The notes below the pieces were generated by a model. That model made no database searches. It was not told the DNA's origin and saw only the letters and a program-made list of their open reading frames with translations. Shown piece by piece: positions 1,209 through 12,263 of a stretch of DNA of 64,000 nt. Position 1 is the stretch's first letter. Every line of letters begins with the position of its first letter. The stretch lies in assembly GCF_054482525.1 (NCBI RefSeq), contig NZ_CM137006.1. The stretch is one strand, 5' to 3'. A program made the position numbers and the translations under genes.

Positions 1209-2345
1209 ATGGATCTATTGATCGTTTTAACTTACGTGGCGCTGGCGTGGGCGGTCTTTAAAATCTTCCGCATTCCGGTGAATCAGTGGACGCTGGCGAC
1301 GGCGGCGCTGGGAGGCGTGTTTCTGGTGAGTGGTTTGATTTTGTTGATGAACTACAATCACCCTTACACTTTTACCGCGCAAAAGGCAGTGATAGCGATC
1401 CCCATCACGCCACAGGTGACGGGAATTGTTACTGAAGTCACTGACAAGAATAATCAGCTTATTCAAAAGGGCGAGGTGCTTTTTAAACTCGACCCGGTTC
1501 GTTACCAGGCGCGAGTTGACAGACTTCAGGCTGACCTGATGACGGCGACGCATAATATAAAGACGCTGCGCGCGCAGCTCACTGAAGCGCAGGCCAACAC
1601 CACCCAGGTTTCAGCGGAGCGCGACCGTCTATTTAAAAATTATCAACGTTATCTGAAAGGCAGCCAGGCGGCGGTGAATCCGTTCTCGGAACGTGACATC
1701 GACGATGCGCGGCAAAACTTCCTCGCGCAGGACGCGCTGGTGAAAGGCTCGGTGGCGGAGCAGGCGCAGATCCAGAGCCAGCTCGACAGTATGGTTAACG
1801 GCGAGCAATCGCAGATTGTGAGCTTAAGAGCGCAACTTACTGAAGCAAAATATAACCTTGAGCAGACTGTCATTCGCGCACCAAGCAATGGCTACGTTAC
1901 TCAGGTACTGATCCGCCCAGGTACATACGCAGCTGCCTTGCCGCTACGTCCGGTGATGGTTTTCATCCCCGAGCAAAAACGGCAAATTGTCGCCCAATTT
2001 CGGCAAAACTCGCTGTTACGTCTGAAACCCGGCGATGATGCGGAAGTGGTGTTTAACGCGCTACCTGGGCAGGTGTTCCACGGCAAACTGACCAGTATTT
2101 TACCTGTCGTGCCAGGCGGTTCGTATCAGGCGCAAGGGGTATTGCAATCATTAACGGTCGTGCCCGGCACGGACGGTGTGCTGGGAACCATTGAACTGGA
2201 CCCTAACGCTGATATCGATGCCTTACCCGACGGCATCTACGCCCAGGTGGCAGTTTACTCCGACCATTTCAGCCATGTTTCGGTGATGCGGAAGGTGCTG
2301 CTGAGAATGACCAGTTGGATGCATTATCTTTATTTGGATCATTGA
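1209..2345 (+). CDS. yibH: HlyD-family membrane fusion protein
   Basis: 378-aa ORF, N-terminal TM helix then coiled-coil-rich region typical of HlyD/EmrA family; starts 3 bp after yibI stop. Confidence 0.88.
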
Positions 2346-2442
2346 GTAGGGAAGGGGGAGATTATGGAACTTTGCTCCCTGTAAGGACTAATTATTTTTG
2401 CATATTACTTCATTGGCTGCGATGATTTTTCGTTAATATCCA

Positions 2443-2650
2443 TTATGTTAAGAAGTTCGGGATGAGTGTGAACTCATTGGATTTTTTATCCGTCTTGATC
2501 TGCCGAAGGATCAGACCATACATTGTCGAGATCGCAATGATGATATGAGTTGTTCCTCTGCCACGGCTCTAATCAAAAAAGAGCAGGAGTGCTTTTCCAT
2601 CTATTGCGATGATGGCTTTATTATCTGAAGGATGACAGTCACATTTAAAA
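2443..2650 (-). pseudogene. Remnant of H-repeat (ISAs1-family) transposase, truncated both sides and frame-disrupted
   Basis: Minus-strand translation gives DNKAIIAIDGKALLLFFD* and [33 protein letters not shown], resembling the conserved DKDVIAIDGKTLR...[32 protein letters not shown] core of H-rpt proteins (recalled, e.g. YhhI). Confidence 0.45.
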
Positions 2651-2923
2651 ATATTTAATTTATAGATCACAATGTAGGTTCATGTAATATATGTATACAA
2701 CTATTTTTCTCTTCACTTTTAATTATCGTATTCATTATAACACTAAGTTAAAAAACTCCTGGAGAGTGAGTCATTAATATATTTTTAAATATAATTAAGT
2801 TATTATTCATCGATGCATTTTATAGAATCATCAATGGCTACAATAGTACTATTAACTCTCCAATTTATATTTTTATTATCATTGCAAATATTAACTGAAT
2901 CTATATCAATGATTTTTTTATTT

Positions 2924-3319
2924 TTATCTTTTATTTACAGTTTCAATGCAATCAGCGACAAGTTGGTGTGGATTTAGATTCTTCAGATATGGTCTTATGA
3001 TCTTTCCCTTGCTTAATAAATAGCATGTATAGGATTCGGAAAGTCCAGCATCTATTTTGTACATCATTATTCTAGATAAGGATGTGAGAAATGCCTTGTT
3101 ATCATTAGCAGCCATATATGCCAGTCCGAGTTCAGCCTCTGCGGCTTTACATGAAAAATAGCTAAGTGAACACGCTTTTCGTCCCTCTTGGGTACTGGCT
3201 GATATTAGTGCCCATAATATTGCCTTGTCTGCCAAATCCAACTCTCTCTGAAATTGGTTTACAGTAACTGCATTCGCAGAAATAGAGAAAAAAAGCACAA
3301 TTGTTAATAACCTTGCCAT
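2924..3319 (-). CDS. Orphan immunity-like protein for the adjacent Rhs C-terminal tip; predicted signal peptide
   Basis: 131-aa ORF starting ATG 5 bp after the Rhs-fragment stop; N-terminus MARLLTIVLFFSISANA looks like a Sec signal peptide; AT-rich codon usage. Confidence 0.6.
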   Translation of the reverse strand: MARLLTIVLFFSISANAVTVNQFQRELDLADKAILWALISASTQEGRKACSLSYFSCKAAEAELGLAYMAANDNKAFLTSLSRIMMYKIDAGLSESYTCYLLSKGKIIRPYLKNLNPHQLVADCIETVNKR

Positions 3320-3323
3320 ATTT

Positions 3324-4133
3324 CTAGTCCGTCACTGTTAATGTGCTATCTGGCTCTGAAAATATTAGCTCATTTAATTTTTGCATGTCATTAGATGAAC
3401 CAGTTATACAACCCTCGGAACAGAATCGAGGTCCTAAAGATGGACCAAAAGCGTTTAAACAACTATGTGTTAAAAATCCATCACGATTATACGTTTCTGT
3501 ATTTGCTGACGGTACTAAACGTATACCATTAGGTTTTCTATTAGTTGCTCCAGGACCATTAACATTCCAGCTCCATACCCCTGGAGGTATTGGGCCTCTA
3601 TTTTGTAAGTGTGTACAACCAGGATTATTTTTACATTGCATATTATTACCATTATTACCAGAGGCGACTGAAATAGTAAGCACACCATAAGAATTATCAT
3701 CACTTGGCGTATCTGAAACGCATGAAAGCATACCTAAAGTTATGCTGTATAAACAGGTCGCTAATCCCAACGGGTCAATATCAGTTATCGGATTCAACGG
3801 ATACTGATAAAAATTCCATCCCCCCTTCAGTCCAATCGGATCCTGAGTGATATACCGCCCCTGCAGCTGGTGCGGGTTCTCTTCATTCAGCAGGTTGCCC
3901 CACTCATCGTATTCTGCGCACCATTCTGTTGCCCCTTCCGTGCTGATAAGCACCAGCGGCAGGCCGCGATGGTCGCAGTGGTACAGGTGGATTTTTCGCG
4001 CCGGCGTGTACACCGGGTCCATCTGGTTTTGCATCTGCGCCACCGTCAGGCCGCACGATGCCAGCCAGCGTCGGCTTTCCTCACTCACCCGGTCAGCCAG
4101 GATTTCACTTTCCAGCCGGTCGAGCATCTGCAC
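3324..4133 (-). CDS. Orphan Rhs C-terminal fragment (core end plus divergent toxin tip); no own ATG start
   Basis: Translation [29 protein letters not shown]...[18 protein letters not shown] is near-identical to the rhsA core end in this window, then diverges after the DPxGL motif into a unique Cys-rich tip; ORF-track start is a GTG that is an internal Val codon in rhsA. Confidence 0.7.
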
Positions 4134-4174
4134 CGTGCCGGCGGGAATACCTCACTGTGCATAGGCAACTCACG

Positions 4175-5017
4175 CTATGAACGCTTCAGCTTATCAATAA
4201 CGGAAGTTATAATTTCATTGTCATCAAACTTGTACAACATAGTATCTAAAACAGGAAGTAGCGTTTTATCACCTAATTCACCCGCAGCTTCAATGATATC
4301 ATCATAAACAGTATTTTTTTTTAACTCATCGCATAAAACAGATAAAACCCTTTTATCTTTTCTGTAGGAAAGTCCGATTATTGCTTCAATACGGACTTCC
4401 TCATTTTTATCCTGAAGCATCTCCACAAAATAATCCCTAATATCACTATTATCATATTTATTGATATTTATTGCAAATGCGGCCCAGTTTCTGACATCTC
4501 CATTTGGATCTTTTAACAGATTAATCAATAGTGGAATTGTTTCTTTATCATTGATAACAGAAATAGCAAATGCCGTAGCACGTCTGACATTAGCCGATTT
4601 ATCAAAAGCAGTAATTTGAGATTGTTCTACTATTTTAGGTGAATAAATTGGGTTTTTCTTGCATCGCTGAGCAGTTGACTCGATTGCTGTAGCTCGAACG
4701 CAAGCACTTTTATCATTCAGTGCCATCTTTTTTAAAATATTAAAAACGCTATCTTCGCATTTTTTGCAAACTTTTATTTGCCCGAGTATAAATGCTCCTA
4801 TATCTCTACGGATATAATTTTTGTCAGCGCAGAATTCAATTGCCAATCTAACAGCGTCTTGCCCACCTCTTAGCTGCAATACTCTGGCAGATGAAATCCT
4901 TTTCAATGAATTGCGATTATCAAGTAAGCGAAATAATTCATCATCATTTAGTTTCTTACATTGATTGTATAAACCATACTCTTTACTTGCCTTTCTTTTC
5001 TGGTATGTATTCGACAT
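4175..5017 (-). CDS. yibA: HEAT-repeat protein
   Basis: Translation MSNTYQKRKASKEYGLYNQCKKLNDDELFRLLDN... matches recalled YibA (280 aa); GGAGG RBS 8 nt upstream of ATG at 5017. ORF-track start at 5032 is a 5-codon extension. Confidence 0.85.
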   Translation of the reverse strand: MSNTYQKRKASKEYGLYNQCKKLNDDELFRLLDNRNSLKRISSARVLQLRGGQDAVRLAIEFCADKNYIRRDIGAFILGQIKVCKKCEDSVFNILKKMALNDKSACVRATAIESTAQRCKKNPIYSPKIVEQSQITAFDKSANVRRATAFAISVINDKETIPLLINLLKDPNGDVRNWAAFAININKYDNSDIRDYFVEMLQDKNEEVRIEAIIGLSYRKDKRVLSVLCDELKKNTVYDDIIEAAGELGDKTLLPVLDTMLYKFDDNEIITSVIDKLKRS

Positions 5018-5121
5018 TGCAGGAACCTCCATAAAGACTATCTTTTTCTATCGTTTGACTGTCTGGAGTCCTCCACCTACTCTGCCATCAGCACACACGA
5101 TGTTTGTTTATCCTTACATAC

Positions 5122-5391
5122 TTATTTTCCGTGGCCAAAATTTAGAATTCTCCCGTCATTTTTGCCTATTTCTATAATAAAAACCCTACCAGCAATTTGG
5201 TCTGATTCAATGGTGCCTTCAACAATCCAACTTGTTGGTAATTCCATGATTTTGTATGGTTTTTCTTCTTCTTCTTCGGCATCATGTCCATAACGATTTT
5301 TAACATACATCTCAGCTAATTCCAATGCTATAGCTTTATTTTTGACCAAATTTCTAACGGTGTATTTCCCCTCACTTTCATACTTGCGCAT
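5122..5391 (-). CDS. Small NTF2-like (YbbC/YhhH-family-like) immunity-type protein
   Basis: 89-aa ORF, ATG start; shares KxxAxxLAExYxKxxYG...KPY...W.xEG...DG pattern with the 115-aa ORF at 6994..7341 and with Rhs-linked YbbC/YhhH proteins as recalled; no clear RBS. Confidence 0.5.
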   Translation of the reverse strand: MRKYESEGKYTVRNLVKNKAIALELAEMYVKNRYGHDAEEEEEKPYKIMELPTSWIVEGTIESDQIAGRVFIIEIGKNDGRILNFGHGK

Positions 5392-5472
5392 TATAATAAT
5401 ATTATTACACTGCGCCCATGTGTTGTATGTAAAAATAAAGATACAATCACATAGGTTCTGAATAATATTTTC

Positions 5473-5838
5473 TTATACGTTGTCATGTATTTTGCAAACA
5501 TTAGGCAATCCTTTTCCATTTATTATATCTTTCCCATGATTATCTATTGCTTTAAAATTTTCACCTATTGACCTTGAATTACTACAATCACTTCCAGTGA
5601 AATCTGAGTTATTCAGAATAGCATTCATCAGAGCCGCATTGCGAAAGACAGCATTTCTAGTTGATGTATGTTGAATCATTACATTTCTTAAATGAGTTTT
5701 TTCAAATTTCGCCCCATCAAGACAATAACCATTGAGGGTGGCACGATGTAGATTCATCCCGCTAAAATCATATCCAGCAAGAGTGGTACTATCTATCTCA
5801 AGAAATTTATTGGTTATTAAAAATGCGATTCTTATCAT
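5473..5838 (-). CDS. Pentapeptide-repeat protein (orphan immunity-like)
   Basis: Translation shows consecutive pentapeptide-like units (ATLNGYCLDGAKFEKTHLRNVMIQHTSTRNAVFRNAALMNAILNNSDFTGSD); first ATG at 5838 preceded by GGAGGA RBS; ORF-track TTG start at 5850 is probably an extension. Confidence 0.6.
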   Translation of the reverse strand: MIRIAFLITNKFLEIDSTTLAGYDFSGMNLHRATLNGYCLDGAKFEKTHLRNVMIQHTSTRNAVFRNAALMNAILNNSDFTGSDCSNSRSIGENFKAIDNHGKDIINGKGLPNVCKIHDNV

Positions 5839-5931
5839 CTGTTCCTCCAATCATCTAACTCCCGAAAAATTTGAAAACCAGAACCTCGCTTAGGCCTGTG
5901 TCCATACTACGTGGGTAGGATTATTCTACGT

Positions 5932-5974
5932 ACTACGCTGTTGTCCCTTACGTGCTGATAAGCGCCAGCGGCAG
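5932..5974 (-). repeat. Isolated ~43-bp scar homologous to the Rhs core-end coding sequence
   Basis: ...gctgttgtcccttacgtgctgataagcgccagcggcagg aligns to rhsA at about 8775..8817 and to the orphan fragment at about 3935..3966, with mismatches; flanks are unrelated. Confidence 0.5.
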
Positions 5975-6090
5975 GTTATTCGGTTTGCGTCGTTGAGTTC
6001 ACTACACTAAAACTCCGTGCCCATATAACCCAAGTCGGAGGCATGCCTTCCTCTGGTTCGTTCCATCTAAAATGTCTATACATAACATGG

Positions 6091-6333
6091 TTATTCAATT
6101 ATTTTTTCTTTGAGTTTATTCTCAATCCAGCTGTCTTTATACCTGATGAAAATTTGACATTCACCAATATTATCAATGTCACCAACATTTGTGTTTCGAA
6201 TTTGACCAACAGCAACTATAGTTGATTCAAAATATTCAACATTGACATTATCTGTAATTATTGAAATTATATAATCATCTGGAATAGAGCCATTAGGAGT
6301 TATATTGAAGAAACTAACATCTGAAAATACCAA
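6091..6333 (-). CDS. Hypothetical small protein (80 aa), possible orphan immunity gene
   Basis: Open frame with only a TTG start and no internal Met; AT-rich; lies downstream of a decayed coding remnant. Weak call. Confidence 0.3.
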   Translation of the reverse strand: MVFSDVSFFNITPNGSIPDDYIISIITDNVNVEYFESTIVAVGQIRNTNVGDIDNIGECQIFIRYKDSWIENKLKEKIIE

Positions 6334-6559
6334 ATAACCATCTTCTAAGTCTTCATTATCATAAAAATTCCATTCTGTTGTACCATAGGCTATCCTTGAG
6401 ATTAAATTAACCTGAATTCTAATTTGTTTACTCCATAAATCAAATTCAATTTTTTATTGCTCGATCACCAAGATATATTCTATCAAACATATTACCCCCC
6501 TATTCTAAAAATACTCAGGCATTCCGCACATTATATCAGCCTCATCTTGATTGCTTCCC

Positions 6560-6840
6560 GTTTCCCAATACGGCGGCGCGGGGAGTCATAAAGGTAAGAA
6601 ATTTCCAGCAGTACGGCGTCCTATTGTTCACGGCGGTAATGCACCAGCCAGTATTGGCTATCGTAGTGATAACCGTGTAACCTGCCGCCGCATCGCGTAT
6701 CTAATGTTCATTCTTTTCCATAAACCGTCCGTACACATTGTGATAGTAAAAATACAATACATCTTCGCTGATGCGGTTATTCTGCTGCATGTGGGAAGCG
6801 CCGAATACTGCTCCCGGTATGGCCAGTAATTACTATTTAG
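6560..6840 (-). pseudogene. Decayed coding remnant (possible orphan toxin-tip fragment)
   Basis: GC-richer patch in AT-rich DNA; minus-strand frames give protein-like stretches (LAIPGAVFGASHMQQNNRISEDVLYFYYHNVYGRFMEKNEH*, AGYTVITTIANTGWCITAVNNRTPYCWKF...) broken by stops; ORF-track 67-aa and 92-aa ORFs overlap here. Confidence 0.3.
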
Positions 6841-6993
6841 TACGACGTTAGGGGGAGTCACTTAATCTCACAGATACTTCAAGTAACAGATGAAAATCGC
6901 TCCTGAAATGAAAAAGAAATTTTTTTGAATGTGTTCCTGTCAAATCAAGTGGTTTTTTCGTCGATATGTAGAGTCATATTGTACACAAAATAG

Positions 6994-7341
6994 TTACGAA
7001 ACACACCTTGGTAAAATATTTGAATCGTCTGAACAGTGGATTATTTTGTGTATTACATCCAACGCTTGCCCATCTTTTTTCGCTATTAGTATTGTAAAAT
7101 TTCCTCCTAACGTCTTCGGTTGTTTTCCCTCGATTTTCCAACAATTATTGTCATCTGTAATACTATATGGTTTCTGAAATTCTGCTTTTTCTTTCCCGTA
7201 TATATATTTAATATAAACATATGATAATTCCAAAGCCATTTCACGACTATTTACTAAAATTTCCGCTGAATTTTCTTTTCCAAATACTGAGTGTGATATT
7301 GTAAACAATATCATAATAAGTAATATTAGTGAGTTTCTCAT
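6994..7341 (-). CDS. Secreted NTF2-like (YbbC/YhhH-family-like) immunity-type protein
   Basis: 115-aa ORF, ATG with AGGTG RBS; N-terminal signal peptide MRNSLILLIMILFTISHSVFG; shares motif pattern with 5122..5391. Confidence 0.6.
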   Translation of the reverse strand: MRNSLILLIMILFTISHSVFGKENSAEILVNSREMALELSYVYIKYIYGKEKAEFQKPYSITDDNNCWKIEGKQPKTLGGNFTILIAKKDGQALDVIHKIIHCSDDSNILPRCVS

Positions 7342-7509
7342 GCTCTACACCTATCGAATCTCAAAAGTTGTGGGTAAAACATTACATTCAGAATATATGA
7401 TATTCTTACCATCGGAATCCATTTTTCCAAATCGACCTTCTGGTGTTCCTGGATACCCATTAAGAACATATTTTTTCGAATAGTTAATTTATTTTCTCAG
7501 GAAGAGATT

Positions 7510-8079
7510 TTATTTTTCTTCACTACGAAGTAGTTCATGCTGTACTTTTGTTAAACATTCGTAAGACTCATCTTTGTTCGGGAGATGTGCTGTCATTCGA
7601 GCATAAGTTGGCTTCTCATCTTTAAAATATTTAACCATGATTGAATTATCAAGGACTGCCAACAACTGAGCTGGATCACTGCTCTTTTTTTGATAGATAC
7701 CCGCTCTTATATAACTTCTAAACCGATCGCCGAGAAACGCCGTTTTTTCTGCTGTATTTAGCAACTCCTGCAACGTTCCTTTGGTTGCATGATTTTCATT
7801 AAGGCGTAGTGATCCGACGCGAATTAAGAGTCTCGCCCCGCTTGGTGTGAATTTGTTATTTTTACATATACCAAGCTCTGTTTGCCAATAATACTCACCT
7901 ATGTCCTCATTCTGATACCATCTCCACATGGTTTTATTATTTAAGACAGGAAACGCGGAAAAAATAGTACCCTTAGTGAAAATGGTAAAGCAATCTTGAT
8001 CTTTAGCTTGTGTTTCGCAATTAGCTATAACACCAAAACTAACGAATATCATCAGCAAAAAGAACAAAGCTCTTTTCAT
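7510..8079 (-). CDS. Putative cognate immunity protein of RhsA (secreted)
   Basis: 189-aa ORF whose ATG overlaps the rhsA stop by 4 bp (8076..8079); N-terminal signal peptide [19 protein letters not shown]; AT-rich relative to the rhsA core. Confidence 0.65.
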
Positions 8080-11000
8080 TTTCTTATTCCTCTCGATGTT
8101 CTCTGTTTCATTTTAGCTAAAATTTCACCCAAATCATCTATCCCTGCTGTTGCTGGCCCATCGGGTTTATTAATGTCTGGGAATAAATAGGGTTCTGCAC
8201 AAGTATATCCTGGTGGTAATTGAGTTGTTGGCCAAGTTGTCTGTGGCAGGTAATCACTTGCTGTCTTTGTCTCCATCCCTGGATACTGGGGATCATCCTG
8301 CGGCGTACAAGTCAGATTGGGTTTTACCCACTTCCTGCAATACAGTGTGTAATCGTAAGGACTTAATGCTCTGAAGAATGTTTTGAAAACATTAGGCGCA
8401 CTACTGGCCTGGTCAATAGGATATGGCAGTCTTAATTGTTTCGCTATGTCTGGCAACTTACTTGGATCGGGCGTAGGCGGTTTGTTGGGTCTCGCTCCAT
8501 ATCCGCCATTATTTAAGTGTCCATATTTAGATGCCAGTCCCATTGAATCTATATACTGAACCGGATTTAACGGATACTGATAAAAATTCCATCCCCCCTT
8601 CAGTCCAATCGGATCCTGAGTGATATACCGCCCCTGCAGCGGGTCATAATAGCGGTGGCGGTTGTAATACAGGCCTGACTCCTCATCATACTGCTGACCC
8701 GGCAGGCGGATGAGCTGCTGCAGCTGGTGCGGGTTATCCTCACTCAGCTGGTTACCCCATTCATCGTATTCTGCGTACCATTCTGTTGCCCCTTCCGTGC
8801 TGACAAGCGCCAGCGGCAGGCCGCGATGGTCGCAGTGGTACAGGTGGATTTTTCGCGCCGGCGTGTACACCGGGTCCATCTGGTTTTGCATCTGCTCCAC
8901 CGTCAGGCCGCACGATGCCAGCCAGCGGCGGCTTTCCTCACTCACCCGGTCAGTAAGGATTTCACTTTCCAGCCGGTCGAGCATCTGCACCAGCACCGGC
9001 GGGAACACCACATCACCACCGTCTTCACCGCCGGACTGCTGAAGCGCATCCGCCAGGCTGCGGCGCTGCGTTTTCGCCAGCTCACCGGTGGCAGTTTCAA
9101 CTCTGATGAGTGGCGTGAAGCTCCCCGGCTGATAAACCGTCTGGATGCGGGTTCTGTCGTTCTGTATCGTGGTCAGCCGGTCGCCGTCCCAGCCGTACCA
9201 GGTCACTTCCGGTTTCCGTGACAGCGACATCCAGCCCGTCAGGTCCCGTTCACGCCGCCACACCCGTTTTGCCACCCTGCGGCCCAGCGGGTCGTAAAGA
9301 TAGCGACTTTCGACCAGCGGCTCTGCATATTGTGTCCGCGTGTAGTGCACCAGCCGGTGCTGACTGTCGTAATGGTACTGGTGAGTCCGCTCATCATCCG
9401 TGCGGATAACCCCTTCCGGGATGAGGTCGGTTTTCTCTGTCAGCCTGCCGTGACGGTCATACCGGTAAAGATAGTGCGCGTCACGGGCGATACGGTTATC
9501 CGGCCACATGCTGAGGGTGCTGTCCGGGTGCAGCTCCGGGTCGGGCAGGCGGTTACCTGCCGGGTCTGTGGCATACGGGATGCGGATATCAAGGTTCGCT
9601 GCCGTGGTGTGAACGCCGGTCAGCCTGCCGGAGTCGCTGTAGCTGTAACTCCGGGTCTGGCGCGGGCTGCTGATGCGGATGAGTTCGCCGTTGTCGTTCC
9701 AGGTGTAATCGCGGTCATACTGCAGGCTGTTCAGATGCTGGCTCTGTAACTGCCCGGCAGGGGTGTAAGCGGTGGTGAGTTCATAACGGCCGAAGCTGCG
9801 CAGCGTTTCCCGGTGCAGGCGGTCGCGGGTGAAATCCACCAGCGGTGTGTCGCCGAGTTTCATGCCTGACAGCCAGCCGCTGCCGTAGGTCAGCCATTCC
9901 ACGGCGGGCAGGCTGTCCGGTATACAGCGGTTCGCCAGTCCCTGCGCGTTGTAAGCGTGTCTGGTTTCATGCTGCCAGAGCAGTGCTTCCGTCTGCGGGT
10001 GATGCACCGTCTGGCGCTCACCGGTCAGGCGGCCTTTCTCATCATACCCGTAATGCACCGTCACCCGGTGGCCTTCGCTGAGATGGCTGATTTGTGTCAG
10101 CCAGCCGCGTTCGTCATACTGCCACTGCTCTGCCGGTTCACCCTTCACGGTGCGGTGAGTGAGGCGGTCTGCTTCGTCATAGTGCCAGTGGGTGACCAGC
10201 CCCTCATCCTCGCTGCGGATAAGTTTGCCGGTCAGGTCGTGGTGATAACGCTGTGTGCGGCCGTCAAAGCCGGTTTCCTGTATCAGCCGGTCAAGTACAT
10301 CGTAACGGAAGGTGGTGTGGCTGCCGTTTTCACTGGTCAGGCGGATGACCCGTCCGGCAGCATCGTATTCCATACTGCGCGTCAGACCGCCCTGCGTGGT
10401 ACGGATGGCCTTTCCCCACGCATCGTACTGTGTCCCGTTTCTGCTGCCGTCCGGGGCAATGACGGCGGTCAGGTCACCGGCGGCGTTGTATTCATACCGC
10501 GTTTCATGGCCCTGCATGTCTTTCACCGCAATTAACTGTCCACGGCTGTCGTATGCGCGGTACTGGCTCAGGCCTTCCTCGCGGTGCACCGCCGTCACCT
10601 GACCAAAACGGTCATGGTCATAACGGGTTACATAACCGGAACAGTCAGTGACGGTCAGCAACTGACCGTAACGGCTCCATGTCATGGTTTTCCGGCTGCC
10701 GGTGGCATCCTCCGTTGCGCAGGGTAAGTCACTGTGTGGATTATCATAACGGTAGCGGGTGATATCGCCGTCAGGGGCAGTTTCCTGAATCAGACGGCCG
10801 GATTCATCATATTCCCGGCGTATTTCCAGCCCGTCAGTCCCGGTGGCTGACGTTAACTGGCTGTGGTGGTTATAGTAAAACGCCGATGCCCTGCCATCCG
10901 GCGTGGTGATGCGCGTGATGAGGCCCGTCACCACATCCGGGCTGTATTCTGTTGTCCGGCCTGCGGCATCCGTCTGTGCCTTAAGCCTGCCCACCGCATC

Positions 11001-12263
11001 AAACTGACTCTGCGTGACGCTGCCGTCCGCGTGTTCCTTTTTCACCACCCGCTTCAGCCCGCCTTCGCCCTGCGTGTGCAGCACTTCACGGCGGTCCAGA
11101 CTGTCGGTGATGGTGATGCGGTCTTTCTCATACTGATACGTGTAGCTTAAGCCTGCCGGGTTTAGCTGCTCTGTCACCCGCCCGTCGCTGTCGTAACGGT
11201 AACGGATTTCCGGCCGGCCCGTGTGACGGTGCGCCACCATCCGGCCCCGGTATTTATCATCGTAAGTAAAGCTGCGCACCTGTGTATTGCTGCGGTCATA
11301 CACCGCCGCCAGTTCGCCGCGCGGCGTCCAGCCATAGCGTACCAGCGGCGCGGCTGGCAGGTTATCCGGATATTCCGGGTCGTGCGTCAGCCACACGGCA
11401 GACAGACGGATGCCGTTGTCCCGGCCATATTCGGTGTAACCCGGCAGGGTATCAGGAAAAGCGGACGGTTCCGTCCCGCCGGAAATGGCCTGCTGCCGGG
11501 CTTCTTCTGCCCGCTGCGCCTGCGTGGTCAGTACCAGCCGGAAGTGACGCCCGGCACCATCCGTCACGCCGCTGAATTCGCCGCCAGCCTCACGGTGGAA
11601 CGTCTGTGTGCGCCCGAAGCGGTCCACCAGCCCGGTCAGTACCCGGTACGGCGGCAGCGGCGCAGGCAGCACCTCATCCGCCTCCGGCACCCGCTCACAC
11701 CAGCCGAGTACCCACCACGGCCCCTGCGGACTGTTCGTCGCCAGATAACGATGCGGACTCAGGCGAAGCTCTTCCGGCAGCGCCTGCCAGAGTGCGGCCA
11801 GCCGGTGACCTTCATCCAGTTTCGCCACGCCGCCACGCACCAGCCAGAGTGACTCGCTGCGGCTGTAACCGTCCTCACCGGGAAACAGGTGCTCAAAATA
11901 CAGGCTCCTGCCGCCGTTATCACTGAGTATCAGTGTGTTATCGCGCAGCTGTAAGCGGATATCCGCGGGCATTTTCCAGCCGGGGCCGAGGCTCCCCACC
12001 GGCGCGGGCGTTTTTGTCCGGTAACTGCTGTAGGTGCGGGAGAGGATGAACGGCAGCGGGCCGGGCAGGGCAAGGTCGGTTTCGCCGGGAAGGACCTTCG
12101 CGCCGAGCAGCGGATTGACCGGATGGCCGGACGTCACCCCGCCGGGGCACACCGAACAGGCCACGCCGGTGGGGGCACCGATGCGCACCCCGGCTGAACC
12201 CTGAACAATGCTACCGCCATACTGCGTCATGTCGCCCTGACGCGCCGCCGGTTTTCCGCTCAT
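8076..12263 (-). CDS. rhsA: Rhs-family polymorphic toxin: PAAR-like N-terminus, YD-repeat core, variant C-terminal tip
   Basis: 1395-aa ORF beginning [29 protein letters not shown], repeated YD/RY motifs, conserved [15 protein letters not shown] near the end followed by a ~170-aa proline-rich tip; sits beside yibF as rhsA does in K-12; GC-rich core. Confidence 0.95.

What the first reader, a model, noticed from the sequence alone, without database searches (positions are those of the whole stretch)
3324..4155. Orphan Rhs C-terminal fragment has an in-frame 84-bp deletion between ctgcag direct repeats
Direct comparison within this window: rhsA reads ...[42 protein letters not shown]..., while the orphan reads ...[14 protein letters not shown]... 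At DNA level the missing 84 bp are bounded in rhsA by cagctgcag and ccgctgcag, consistent with deletion by slipped mispairing or short-homology recombination. The deletion removes the final conserved YD-type element just before the DPxGL site. The orphan has no start codon of its own, and its homology to the rhsA core ends about 20 bp before the yibA stop.
Basis: seen in the sequence. Interest (0 to 1): 0.5.

Follow-up and report, generated by a model that had tools for sequence, protein, structure and literature searches.

The report
Decayed spare Rhs toxin cassette
A silent spare toxin cassette downstream of the E. coli rhsA gene really has lost 84 bases between two short repeats, but this is ordinary decay of a well-known kind of element, whose protective immunity gene is also broken.

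Summary
The orphan rhs fragment (minus strand, 4157..3324) lacks exactly 84 bp (28 codons, [28 protein letters not shown]) that rhsA has. The gap is bounded by two GCTGCAG copies, and one copy remains at 3861-3867.

It is a derived deletion of single origin. The junction occurs once in each of exactly 35 of 5,426 complete E. coli genomes, always at this locus. About 59 genomes carry the undeleted version, and thousands of other rhs core ends keep the 84 bp.

The cassette is a known type: an orphan rhs-CT module with a Tlde1-like toxin tip and an Imm57 immunity gene. The lost 28 residues lie in the C-terminal plug (aspartyl-protease) domain, six residues before the first of two DPxGL motifs. 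Both DPxGL motifs survive. The immunity gene carries a separate 5-bp frameshift.

Local slippage between the repeats is the most likely origin. I could not exclude a larger microhomology deletion from an ancestor in which an ISAs1 element abuts the same CTGCAG, an arrangement found in 118 genomes.

The deleted segment also corresponds to Salmonella's internal rhs promoter P2, but the E. coli hexamers are poor. Verdict: real, already explained, low interest.

The parts
8076..12263 (-). Full-length rhsA-locus rhs gene (1395 aa), used as the reference copy for the comparison.
   Evidence: ORF list and translation. RefSeq calls it 'RHS element core protein' in the near-identical strain 1190. NCBIfam RHS_core and TIGR03696 positions 1-76/76 match its C-terminal part.
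8641..8724 (-). The 84 bp present in rhsA and missing in the orphan. It could equally be placed at 8634-8717, because the position is ambiguous by the 7-bp repeat. It encodes RhsA 1183-1210, [35 protein letters not shown] copies lie at 8718-8724 and 8634-8640.
4175..5032 (-). yibA (HEAT-repeat protein). In K-12 it neutralises RhsA-CT. Here it is a stand-alone immunity-type gene directly upstream of the orphan.
   Evidence: NCBIfam PRK09687, E=6.6e-137. RefSeq annotation. Role in K-12 as quoted in PMC3150448.
3868..4157 (-). 5' part of the orphan: a 290-bp fragment of rhs core, about 95% identical to rhsA 8725-9012, GC 55-62%.
   Evidence: Pfam RHS PF03527 on residues 48-84. NCBIfam RHS_core positions 1111-1200.
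3861..3867 (-). Deletion junction: the single retained GCTGCAG.
   Evidence: A 43-mer across the junction is found once in each of exactly 35 of 5,426 genomes.
3789..3860 (-). Conserved 3' core segment retained after the junction ([24 protein letters not shown]). It contains the first DPxGL (DPIGL, 3842-3828). Together with the junction it forms a 72-bp block (3867-3796) identical to rhsA.
3762..3776 (-). Second DPxGL (DPLGL, inside [10 protein letters not shown]). This is the PxxxxDPxGL demarcation and predicted autocleavage motif, and it is retained.
   Evidence: and direct reading. Role of the two motifs from PMC8636562 and PMC8765631.
3324..3761 (-). Variable toxin tip: Tlde1-like domain with the motif H-x15-SEGC, AT-rich (GC 35-42%), stop codon at 3324-3326.
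   Evidence: Pfam Tlde1_dom PF10908, E=5e-7. RefSeq calls it 'tlde1 domain-containing protein'. Family alignment. Composition.
2803..3319 (-). Imm57-family immunity gene, inactivated by a 5-bp deletion. One unit of the tandem AAATAAAATA is lost after position 2937. The ORF stops at 2924, giving 131 aa instead of 173 aa.
   Evidence: Alignment with intact copies in L002, L004 and L006. RefSeq marks it 'frameshifted'.

Best explanation
The region is a silent orphan rhs-CT/rhsI cassette of the E. coli rhsA locus. It consists of a 5'-truncated piece of rhs core fused to a Tlde1-like periplasm-acting toxin tip, followed by an Imm57 immunity gene.

Origin (inferred): in one ancestor, an undeleted copy of this orphan lost 84 bp by replication slippage or short-homology recombination between two GCTGCAG repeats 84 bp apart. 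That single event is now carried on a near-identical block of about 6.4 kb, running from the rhsA tip to Imm57. The block sits in at least two chromosomal backgrounds and 35 of 5,426 complete genomes.

Consequence: the deletion is in frame. It removes 28 conserved residues of the C-terminal plug (aspartyl-protease) domain, six residues before the first DPxGL. Both DPxGL catalytic motifs and the toxin ORF stay intact.

Predicted behaviour (inferred): orphans are deployed only after recombination with the full-length gene. A crossover in the 290-bp upstream homology would therefore build an Rhs with a damaged plug that probably cannot fold or self-cleave. Only a crossover in the 72-bp identical block downstream of the junction would give an intact chimera.

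The immunity gene is independently frameshifted, so the cassette is best read as a decaying relic under no selection.

Shown: the deletion, its polarity, its single origin, its distribution, the domains affected and the immunity frameshift. Inferred: the slippage mechanism, neutrality and the effect on folding and cleavage.
For: - Exact 84-bp gap flanked by GCTGCAG with one copy kept.
- Undeleted alleles of the same yibA-linked orphan occur in about 59 genomes (two BLAST pieces 84 bp apart, 97% identity). In strain 6409 the undeleted orphan has a tip 99.4% identical to the window.
- The junction 43-mer is present once in each of exactly 35 genomes and nowhere else among about 16,000 rhs core ends.
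- The surrounding block is at least 99.6% identical in all 35 genomes, and the next-best genomes are 97-98.8% identical.
- The window and strain 1190 are near-identical (0-1 mismatches per 500 bp) over about 2500-8500, with divergence rising beyond roughly 2200 and 8600, but 1-4% diverged in the rhs core, yibH and yibF-selAB.
- TIGR03696 matches only positions 42-76 of 76 in the orphan, against 1-76 in rhsA.
- All 13 distant relatives keep the segment.
- Structures and papers place the catalytic aspartates in the two DPxGL motifs and define the preceding ~75 residues as the embedded plug.
- Imm57 carries a 5-bp frameshift.
- Perfect-identity blocks with rhsA are at most 86 bp upstream and 72 bp downstream of the junction.
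- In Salmonella, an orphan is activated by recombination across 522 bp of 95% identity (PMC3967940).
Against: - No immediate progenitor is available. Every genome with this haplotype already has the deletion, so the starting arrangement is inferred.
- An ISAs1 element ends exactly at the second CTGCAG in 118 genomes whose Tlde1 tip is the closest relative of the window's, at about 99% identity. Under the local-slippage model this is a coincidence.
- Neutrality is assumed. The toxin ORF of 269 codons is still open, and the deleted DNA corresponds to a known promoter in Salmonella.
- The effect on folding and autocleavage was not tested.
Confidence: 0.6

Rival explanations
1. The junction is the scar of a larger deletion (about 1.2-2.8 kb), not an 84-bp slip. 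The ancestor had two tandem orphans: yibA - orphan 1 (complete core end with another tip and its immunity gene) - ISAs1/H-rpt - orphan 2 (the Tlde1 tip, whose core fragment had been truncated by the IS to start at CTGCAG). Illegitimate recombination then joined GCTGCA(G) in orphan 1 to the G|CTGCAG at the IS/orphan-2 boundary. That removed tip 1, its immunity gene and the IS, and by chance left the reading frame 84 bp short.
For: - In FDAARGOS_1285 and 117 other genomes, a 1291-bp ISAs1 with inverted repeats ends ...CTTTCCCTG and is followed directly by CTGCAGGGGCGG... of the Tlde1 orphan. This is the exact 3' endpoint of the window's deletion.
- That orphan tip and its right flank are the closest non-deleted relatives of the window: 99.4% for the tip and 98.8% over 1.4 kb.
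- Relative to L002, the window aligns up to 3862 with orphan 1 and from 3870 with orphan 2, skipping 2,755 bp. Relative to K-12 it skips 1,225 bp.
- Microhomology is equally good in both models, at 9 of 10 bases.
Against: - From general knowledge, deletions between 7-bp repeats become much rarer with distance, so 84 bp is far more likely than 2.7 kb.
- Undeleted orphans with an equally close tip (strain 6409, 99.4%) and with the closest yibA-linked core (DSM 103246, 98.3%) exist and could be the progenitor type.
- CTGCA occurs only twice in the 451-bp core fragment, at the two endpoints. Three of five ISAs1 right flanks begin (G/C)CTGC. A weak target preference could therefore explain the coincidence.
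- The yibA+core of the IS-type genome is only 94-96% identical to the window.
Confidence: 0.22
2. The deletion was selected as a disarming mutation. The 84 bp correspond to the region that in Salmonella Typhimurium holds the internal promoter P2, which drives toxin-antitoxin-like expression of rhs tips and their immunity genes. Once Imm57 was frameshifted, removing the promoter (and crippling the plug) would stop self-intoxication by the Tlde1 tip.
For: - PMC7043789 places the P2 transcription start 89 nt upstream of the PxxxxDPxGL coding sequence and gives the 108-bp promoter sequence.
- The homologous 108 bp in the window is rhsA 8708..8601. The deletion removes the positions matching its -35, -10 and start site.
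- The immunity gene is broken in every genome that has the deletion.
- The toxin ORF is still open.
Against: - The E. coli sequence is only 78/108 identical to P2, below the paper's 80% criterion.
- Its hexamers read ATGATG-17-TACAAC instead of TTGACG-17-TACAAT, so the key final T of the -10 is missing. A consensus scan finds no promoter there.
- The order of the two lesions is unknown.
- A single event that hitch-hikes on a 6.4-kb block needs no selection.
Confidence: 0.1
3. The gap is an assembly or sequencing artefact, or the difference is an 84-bp insertion in rhsA rather than a deletion in the orphan.
For: None found. It was considered only because rhs repeats are hard to assemble.
Against: - The identical junction is present in 35 independently sequenced complete genomes and in a protein cluster of 181 member sequences (P0001).
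- The 84 bp are present in every sampled match among thousands of genomes in the junction search, in every non-deleted copy examined directly, and in relatives from other genera.
Confidence: 0.01

Closest known systems
Orphan rhs-CT/rhsI modules of Enterobacteriaceae (E. coli K-12 rhsA-yibA-yibJ-yibG array; Salmonella Typhimurium STM0292)
   Same: A 5'-truncated fragment of rhs core lies downstream of a full-length rhs. The PxxxxDPxGL boundary, an AT-rich variable toxin tip and an adjacent immunity gene are all present. The position right after yibA is the same as K-12 yibJ. Deployment is expected through recombination with the main gene (PMC3967940).
   Different: The core fragment has an internal 84-bp in-frame deletion, so the RHS repeat-associated core domain is incomplete. 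The immunity gene is frameshifted. The tip is Tlde1-like. In K-12 that tip is the second, heavily decayed orphan (87% identity), not yibJ.
Tlde1/Tldi1 type VI effector-immunity pairs of Salmonella (L,D-carboxypeptidase/transpeptidase-exchange toxins; PMC9638812)
   Same: There is a Pfam Tlde1_dom match. A His ... Gly-Cys catalytic-type motif and several conserved cysteines are present. The neighbouring immunity protein has a signal-peptide-like N-terminus (MARLLTIVLFFSISANA), which fits action in the periplasm (the signal peptide is my reading).
   Different: Here the domain is the C-terminal tip of an Rhs fragment, not a stand-alone Hcp/VgrG cargo effector. The motif is H-x15-SEGC rather than (S/T)HGC. 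The immunity protein is Imm57 family, not Tldi1.
C-terminal plug / aspartyl autoprotease domain of Rhs and TcC proteins (P. protegens RhsA 7Q97, P. laumondii Rhs1 7PQ5, Tse5, Tse15)
   Same: RhsA of the window aligns across this domain with E-values from 1e-16 to 1e-26. Both DPxGL motifs, 22 residues apart, are present in rhsA and in the orphan.
   Different: The orphan lacks the 28 residues just upstream of the first DPxGL. The equivalent segment in P. protegens RhsA is QNLRFQGQYLDRETGLHFNTFRFYDPDI.
Salmonella internal rhs promoter P2 (Starsta et al. 2020, PMC7043789)
   Same: It occupies the same position in the conserved core end. The 108-bp P2 query aligns without gaps to rhsA 8708..8601.
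   Different: Identity is only 72%, both hexamers are degraded in E. coli, and no activity has been shown. In the orphan the region is deleted altogether.

Membership tests
Orphan rhs-CT/rhsI module | 5'-truncated fragment homologous to the 3' end of the rhs core, located downstream of a full-length rhs gene | tested here: met
   290 bp at about 95% plus 79 bp at about 98% identity to rhsA. No upstream core. Lies 3.9 kb downstream of rhsA.
Orphan rhs-CT/rhsI module | PxxxxDPxGL motif that separates the conserved core from a variable C-terminal tip | tested here: met
   [10 protein letters not shown] at about 3791-3762. Sequence similarity to rhsA ends there and GC drops from about 60% to about 37%.
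Orphan rhs-CT/rhsI module | Complete RHS repeat-associated core domain (TIGR03696) | tested here: not met
   Only profile positions 42-76 of 76 are matched (35.3 bits, cut-off 32.5). rhsA matches 1-76 (83.5 bits).
Orphan rhs-CT/rhsI module | Intact cognate immunity gene immediately downstream | tested here: not met
   The Imm57 homologue starts 5 bp after the toxin stop but has a 5-bp frameshift, giving 131 aa instead of 173 aa.
Orphan rhs-CT/rhsI module | Toxic tip that is neutralised by the neighbouring immunity protein | not testable with these tools
   Needs expression assays.
Tlde1 effector family (Pfam PF10908) | Significant match to the Tlde1 domain profile | tested here: met
   E=5e-7, residues 165-253, model positions 10-105 of 120. 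RefSeq uses the same name.
Tlde1 effector family (Pfam PF10908) | Catalytic motif HXX14-17-(S/T)HGCh (PMC9638812) | tested here: inconclusive
   The orphan has H-x15-S-E-G-C-I. The second His is replaced by Glu. H, S and the first C of HSC are invariant in all 15 aligned relatives; in the second motif the S is invariant, G and C are nearly invariant (90% or more), and Glu is the majority residue (one relative has SAGC).
Short-direct-repeat (slipped-mispairing) deletion | The deleted segment is flanked by identical short direct repeats, and one copy is retained at the junction | tested here: met
   GCTGCAG at both ends in rhsA and in undeleted orphans, and a single copy at 3861-3867.
Short-direct-repeat (slipped-mispairing) deletion | The progenitor carried both repeats 84 bp apart at this very locus | tested here: inconclusive
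   Undeleted alleles exist but are 1-3% diverged. An IS-truncated arrangement with only the second repeat is an equally close relative.
Salmonella-type internal P2 promoter | At least 80% identity to the 108-bp P2 sequence and sigma-70-like -35/-10 hexamers | tested here: not met
   78/108 identical. Hexamers ATGATG-17-TACAAC. No site found by the consensus scan. This applies to rhsA and undeleted orphans. In the window's orphan the region is absent.

The most novel reading that the evidence does not exclude
The 84-bp loss is not neutral decay. It is a selected switch-off: it removes an E. coli counterpart of the Salmonella internal rhs promoter P2 from a Tlde1 toxin cassette whose immunity gene had been lost. 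The two CTGCAG sites that bound it would then be recurrent breakpoints of rhs cassette evolution. They are used here by the deletion, in 118 genomes by ISAs1, and in K-12 as the 5' edge of the distal orphan.
Probability: 0.08. Interest if true: 0.4.

Novelty: already known. Interest (0 to 1): 0.15.

Why it matters
It matters little on its own. It documents how silent Rhs toxin cassettes decay: an in-frame loss inside the plug domain, plus a frameshift in the immunity gene. It also shows that such a damaged cassette still spreads between lineages as a passenger on a 6.4-kb block that carries the active rhsA tip. Two points could interest specialists. First, a natural 28-residue plug deletion that keeps both catalytic DPxGL motifs offers a ready-made test of what the plug segment contributes to folding and autocleavage. 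Second, the deleted DNA coincides with the position of the Salmonella internal promoter P2, whose existence in E. coli has not been tested.

Tried and rejected
1. I looked for the immediate progenitor using yibA+core, the immunity island, tip+Imm57 and the yibF-selAB flank. Every genome with over 99% identity in the cassette already has the deletion, so the two origin models could not be separated.
2. I compared informative sites in the 266-bp core fragment among 18 rhs copies. All are 253-262/266 identical, reflecting concerted evolution, so there is no phylogenetic signal.
3. I tested whether CTGCA belongs to the ISAs1 end by comparing five IS copies. The IS ends at ...CCCTG and the flanks vary, so CTGCAG is target DNA. 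Three of five flanks start (G/C)CTGC, which is too few to establish a preference.
4. I scanned for promoters in rhsA 8450-9100 and in the orphan region. There is no P2-like site, and the number of sites matches the shuffled expectation.
5. I searched the protein database for full-length Rhs proteins carrying this tip. All 97 hits are 307 aa or shorter, and many come from short contigs, so I drew no conclusion about deployment on full-length proteins.
6. Pfam and NCBIfam searches on the main RhsA tip and its downstream ORF found no match.
7. I did not run structure prediction. A 28-residue loss in a domain that packs inside a 1,400-residue cocoon cannot be judged from a fragment model.

Full report
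**Observation.** The locus reads as follows on the minus strand:
- yibF
- a full-length rhs gene (12263..8076, 1395 aa)
- a 189-aa ORF (8079..7510)
- an island of immunity-type genes
- yibA (5032..4175)
- the orphan (homology from 4157, ORF 4133..3324)
- an Imm57 gene (3319..2803)
- yibH on the other strand

Pairwise alignment and the repeat finder show two colinear matches to rhsA whose offsets differ by exactly 84 bp. The orphan protein reads [17 protein letters not shown]. RhsA has an extra [28 protein letters not shown] at residues 1183-1210. In rhsA the segment is bounded by GCTGCAG at 8718-8724 and 8634-8640, and the orphan keeps one copy at 3861-3867.

**Polarity and origin.** The 84 bp are the ancestral state. 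In the junction search every sampled match spans 171 rather than 87 bases, out of 16,344 matches in 3,882 genomes. Every other rhs copy in the fetched loci has the segment, and so do 13 relatives of the same toxin tip from other genera.

I used a 43-mer that can seed a BLAST match only if it spans the junction. It is found once in each of exactly 35 of 5,426 complete E. coli genomes, always at this locus. Of the 94 genomes that hold the whole orphan, 35 have it in one piece at 99.8% identity or better. The other 59 or so have it in two pieces 84 bp apart at about 97%. Examples are XH990 and DSM 103246, where the orphan likewise directly follows yibA. Strain 6409 has an undeleted orphan whose tip is 99.4% identical to the window's.

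All 35 carriers share a distinctive haplotype across yibA+core, the immunity island and tip+Imm57. The next-best genomes are 97-98.8% identical. The carriers are not one clone. The window is identical to PCN033, SCU-102 and 19KM1776 in the yibF-selAB flank, but 1.2% different there from the other carriers. Against strain 1190 it is near-identical (0-1 mismatches per 500 bp) over about 2500-8500, with divergence rising beyond roughly 2200 and 8600, and 1-4% diverged in the rhs core and yibH. So a single deletion event now travels on a 6.4-kb recombination block, from the rhsA tip to Imm57, in at least two backgrounds.

**What the cassette is.** The fragment carries these domain matches:
- Pfam RHS (residues 48-84) and Tlde1_dom (residues 165-253)
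- NCBIfam RHS_core positions 1111-1200
- only positions 42-76 of the 76-position RHS repeat-associated core domain, whereas rhsA matches all 76

The tip family has a conserved H-x15-SEGC motif. This is close to, but not identical with, the Tlde1a motif HXX14-17-(S/T)HGCh (PMC9638812).

The downstream gene is an Imm57 homologue with a signal-peptide-like N-terminus. In the window it has lost one unit of a tandem AAATAAAATA, which shifts the frame and truncates it to 131 of 173 residues. This lesion is present in all carriers, since tip+Imm57 is at least 99.8% identical among them.

**What the deletion removes.** Solved Rhs structures align with the RhsA C-terminal region at E-values from 1e-16 to 1e-26. 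The literature places the two catalytic aspartates in two DPxGL motifs, with cleavage after the second: D1324/D1346 in P. protegens RhsA (PMC8765631) and D1338 in P. laumondii Rhs1 (PMC8636562). It describes the preceding residues (1263-1357 in Rhs1) as a plug embedded in the barrel.

In the window's RhsA these aspartates are D1217 (DPIGL) and D1239 (DSMGL), 22 residues apart. The orphan retains both motifs, as DPIGL at 3842-3828 and DPLGL at 3776-3762. The deletion ends six residues before the first motif. It therefore removes part of the plug but not the catalytic motifs. The DPxGL next to the deletion is the first of two. The demarcation motif PxxxxDPxGL is the second, and it is intact.

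**Likely consequence (inference).** Orphans are thought to be used after recombination with the full-length gene. In Salmonella this happens across 522 bp of 95% identity (PMC3967940). Here the upstream homology is 290 bp with perfect blocks of at most 86 bp. The downstream homology includes a 72-bp perfect block at 3867-3796. A crossover upstream would import the 28-residue gap into RhsA. A crossover in the 72-bp block would give an intact chimera. With the immunity gene broken as well, the cassette looks like a decaying relic.

**How the deletion arose.** Local slippage or short-homology recombination between the two GCTGCAG copies is the simplest model. It fits the retained repeat and the existence of undeleted alleles.

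A rival model arises from an unexpected finding. In FDAARGOS_1285 and 117 other genomes, a 1291-bp ISAs1/H-rpt element ends ...CTTTCCCTG immediately before CTGCAGGGGCGG of a Tlde1 orphan whose tip is 99.4% identical to the window's. Its ends are defined by 25-bp inverted repeats and by comparison with four other copies. That is the exact 3' endpoint of the deletion. Relative to that arrangement, the window looks like a 2,755-bp deletion from the first GCTGCA of the yibA-proximal orphan to the IS boundary. K-12's distal, decayed orphan starts at about the first CTGCAG.

I still favour the 84-bp event, for three reasons:
- Short-repeat deletions become much rarer with distance (general knowledge).
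- Equally close undeleted alleles exist.
- CTGCA occurs only at these two places in the 451-bp core fragment, and three of five IS flanks begin (G/C)CTGC, so a weak IS target preference could explain the coincidence.

The core fragment carries no usable phylogenetic signal, and no immediate progenitor is in the collection.

**A further reading.** Starsta et al. (PMC7043789) showed that Salmonella rhs tips and their immunity genes are transcribed from an internal promoter, P2. Its start site lies 89 nt upstream of the PxxxxDPxGL coding sequence, and they give its 108-bp sequence. That sequence aligns without gaps to rhsA 8708..8601, and its -35, -10 and start positions fall inside the deleted 84 bp. 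However, identity is only 78/108. The hexamers are ATGATG and TACAAC instead of TTGACG and TACAAT, and a consensus scan finds nothing there. A selected silencing reading is therefore possible but weak.

**Comparison and verdict.** This is a member of a well-known kind, the orphan rhs-CT/immunity cassettes of enterobacterial rhs loci. It sits at the same position as K-12 yibJ. It fails two membership features because of decay: the associated core domain is incomplete, and the immunity gene is broken. RefSeq already annotates it as a pseudogene fragment plus a separate 'tlde1 domain-containing protein'. The finding is real and correctly described in its essentials, but it is ordinary. Interest is low.

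Noticed in passing
window 2803-3319 (- strand), lesion after 2937: The Imm57 immunity gene next to the orphan has lost 5 bp (one unit of the tandem AAATAAAATA). This shifts the frame and truncates it to 131 of 173 aa. It is a second slippage-type lesion in the same cassette.
   Followed up: yes
L002 4714-6004 and junction 6004|6005 (FDAARGOS_1285); 118 genomes: A 1291-bp ISAs1/H-rpt element ends exactly at the second CTGCAG of the Tlde1 orphan, the same nucleotide as the 3' endpoint of the window's deletion. There is no target duplication, and the left flank is a remnant of another ISAs1-type transposase gene.
   Followed up: partly
L003 about 5928-6537 (E. coli K-12 AG100): K-12 carries a second, heavily decayed copy of the same Tlde1 orphan (87% identity, several stops) after yibG. 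Its core fragment begins at about the first CTGCAG, so three different rearrangement endpoints map to the two CTGCAG sites.
   Followed up: partly
window about 2200-8600 versus L001: A 6.4-kb block from the rhsA tip to Imm57 is near-identical (0-1 mismatches per 500 bp) between the window and strain 1190, while the rhs core (96-98%), yibH (98.2-98.6%) and yibF-selAB (98.8%) are diverged. The whole tip/immunity/orphan array has evidently moved between lineages by recombination.
   Followed up: partly
window 5040-7500; L011, L012: Between the rhsA immunity ORF and yibA lies an island of toxin-less immunity-type genes: two NTF2-fold immunity genes (one frameshifted), DUF6258, and split pentapeptide-repeat fragments. 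The same rhs + island + yibA array, 97.5% identical, sits at the rhsB locus (nikR..yhhJ) in other strains.
   Followed up: partly
window 8601-8708 (- strand): This 108-bp stretch of rhsA is the gap-free homologue (78/108) of the Salmonella internal rhs promoter P2. The E. coli hexamers are ATGATG and TACAAC. Whether it is active in E. coli is unknown.
   Followed up: partly
window 8076-8600 and 7510-8079 (- strand): The variable tip of the full-length RhsA (about 150 aa after DSMGL) and the 189-aa ORF that overlaps its stop codon have no Pfam or NCBIfam match. They are an uncharacterised toxin/immunity pair.
   Followed up: partly
proteins P0001-P0060: All database relatives of this Tlde1-type tip are short (307 aa or less) orphan-like ORFs that start in the rhs core end. 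They come from Escherichia, Paraburkholderia, Ralstonia, Stenotrophomonas, Rhizobacter and metagenomes. No full-length Rhs with this tip appeared among the 97 hits. This may be a search or contig-length bias.
   Followed up: no
window 3860-3876 (+ strand): The new junction creates a small GC-rich hairpin followed by a T-rich run on the antisense strand, which the terminator scan flags. The number of such sites in the region is no higher than in shuffled sequence.
   Followed up: no
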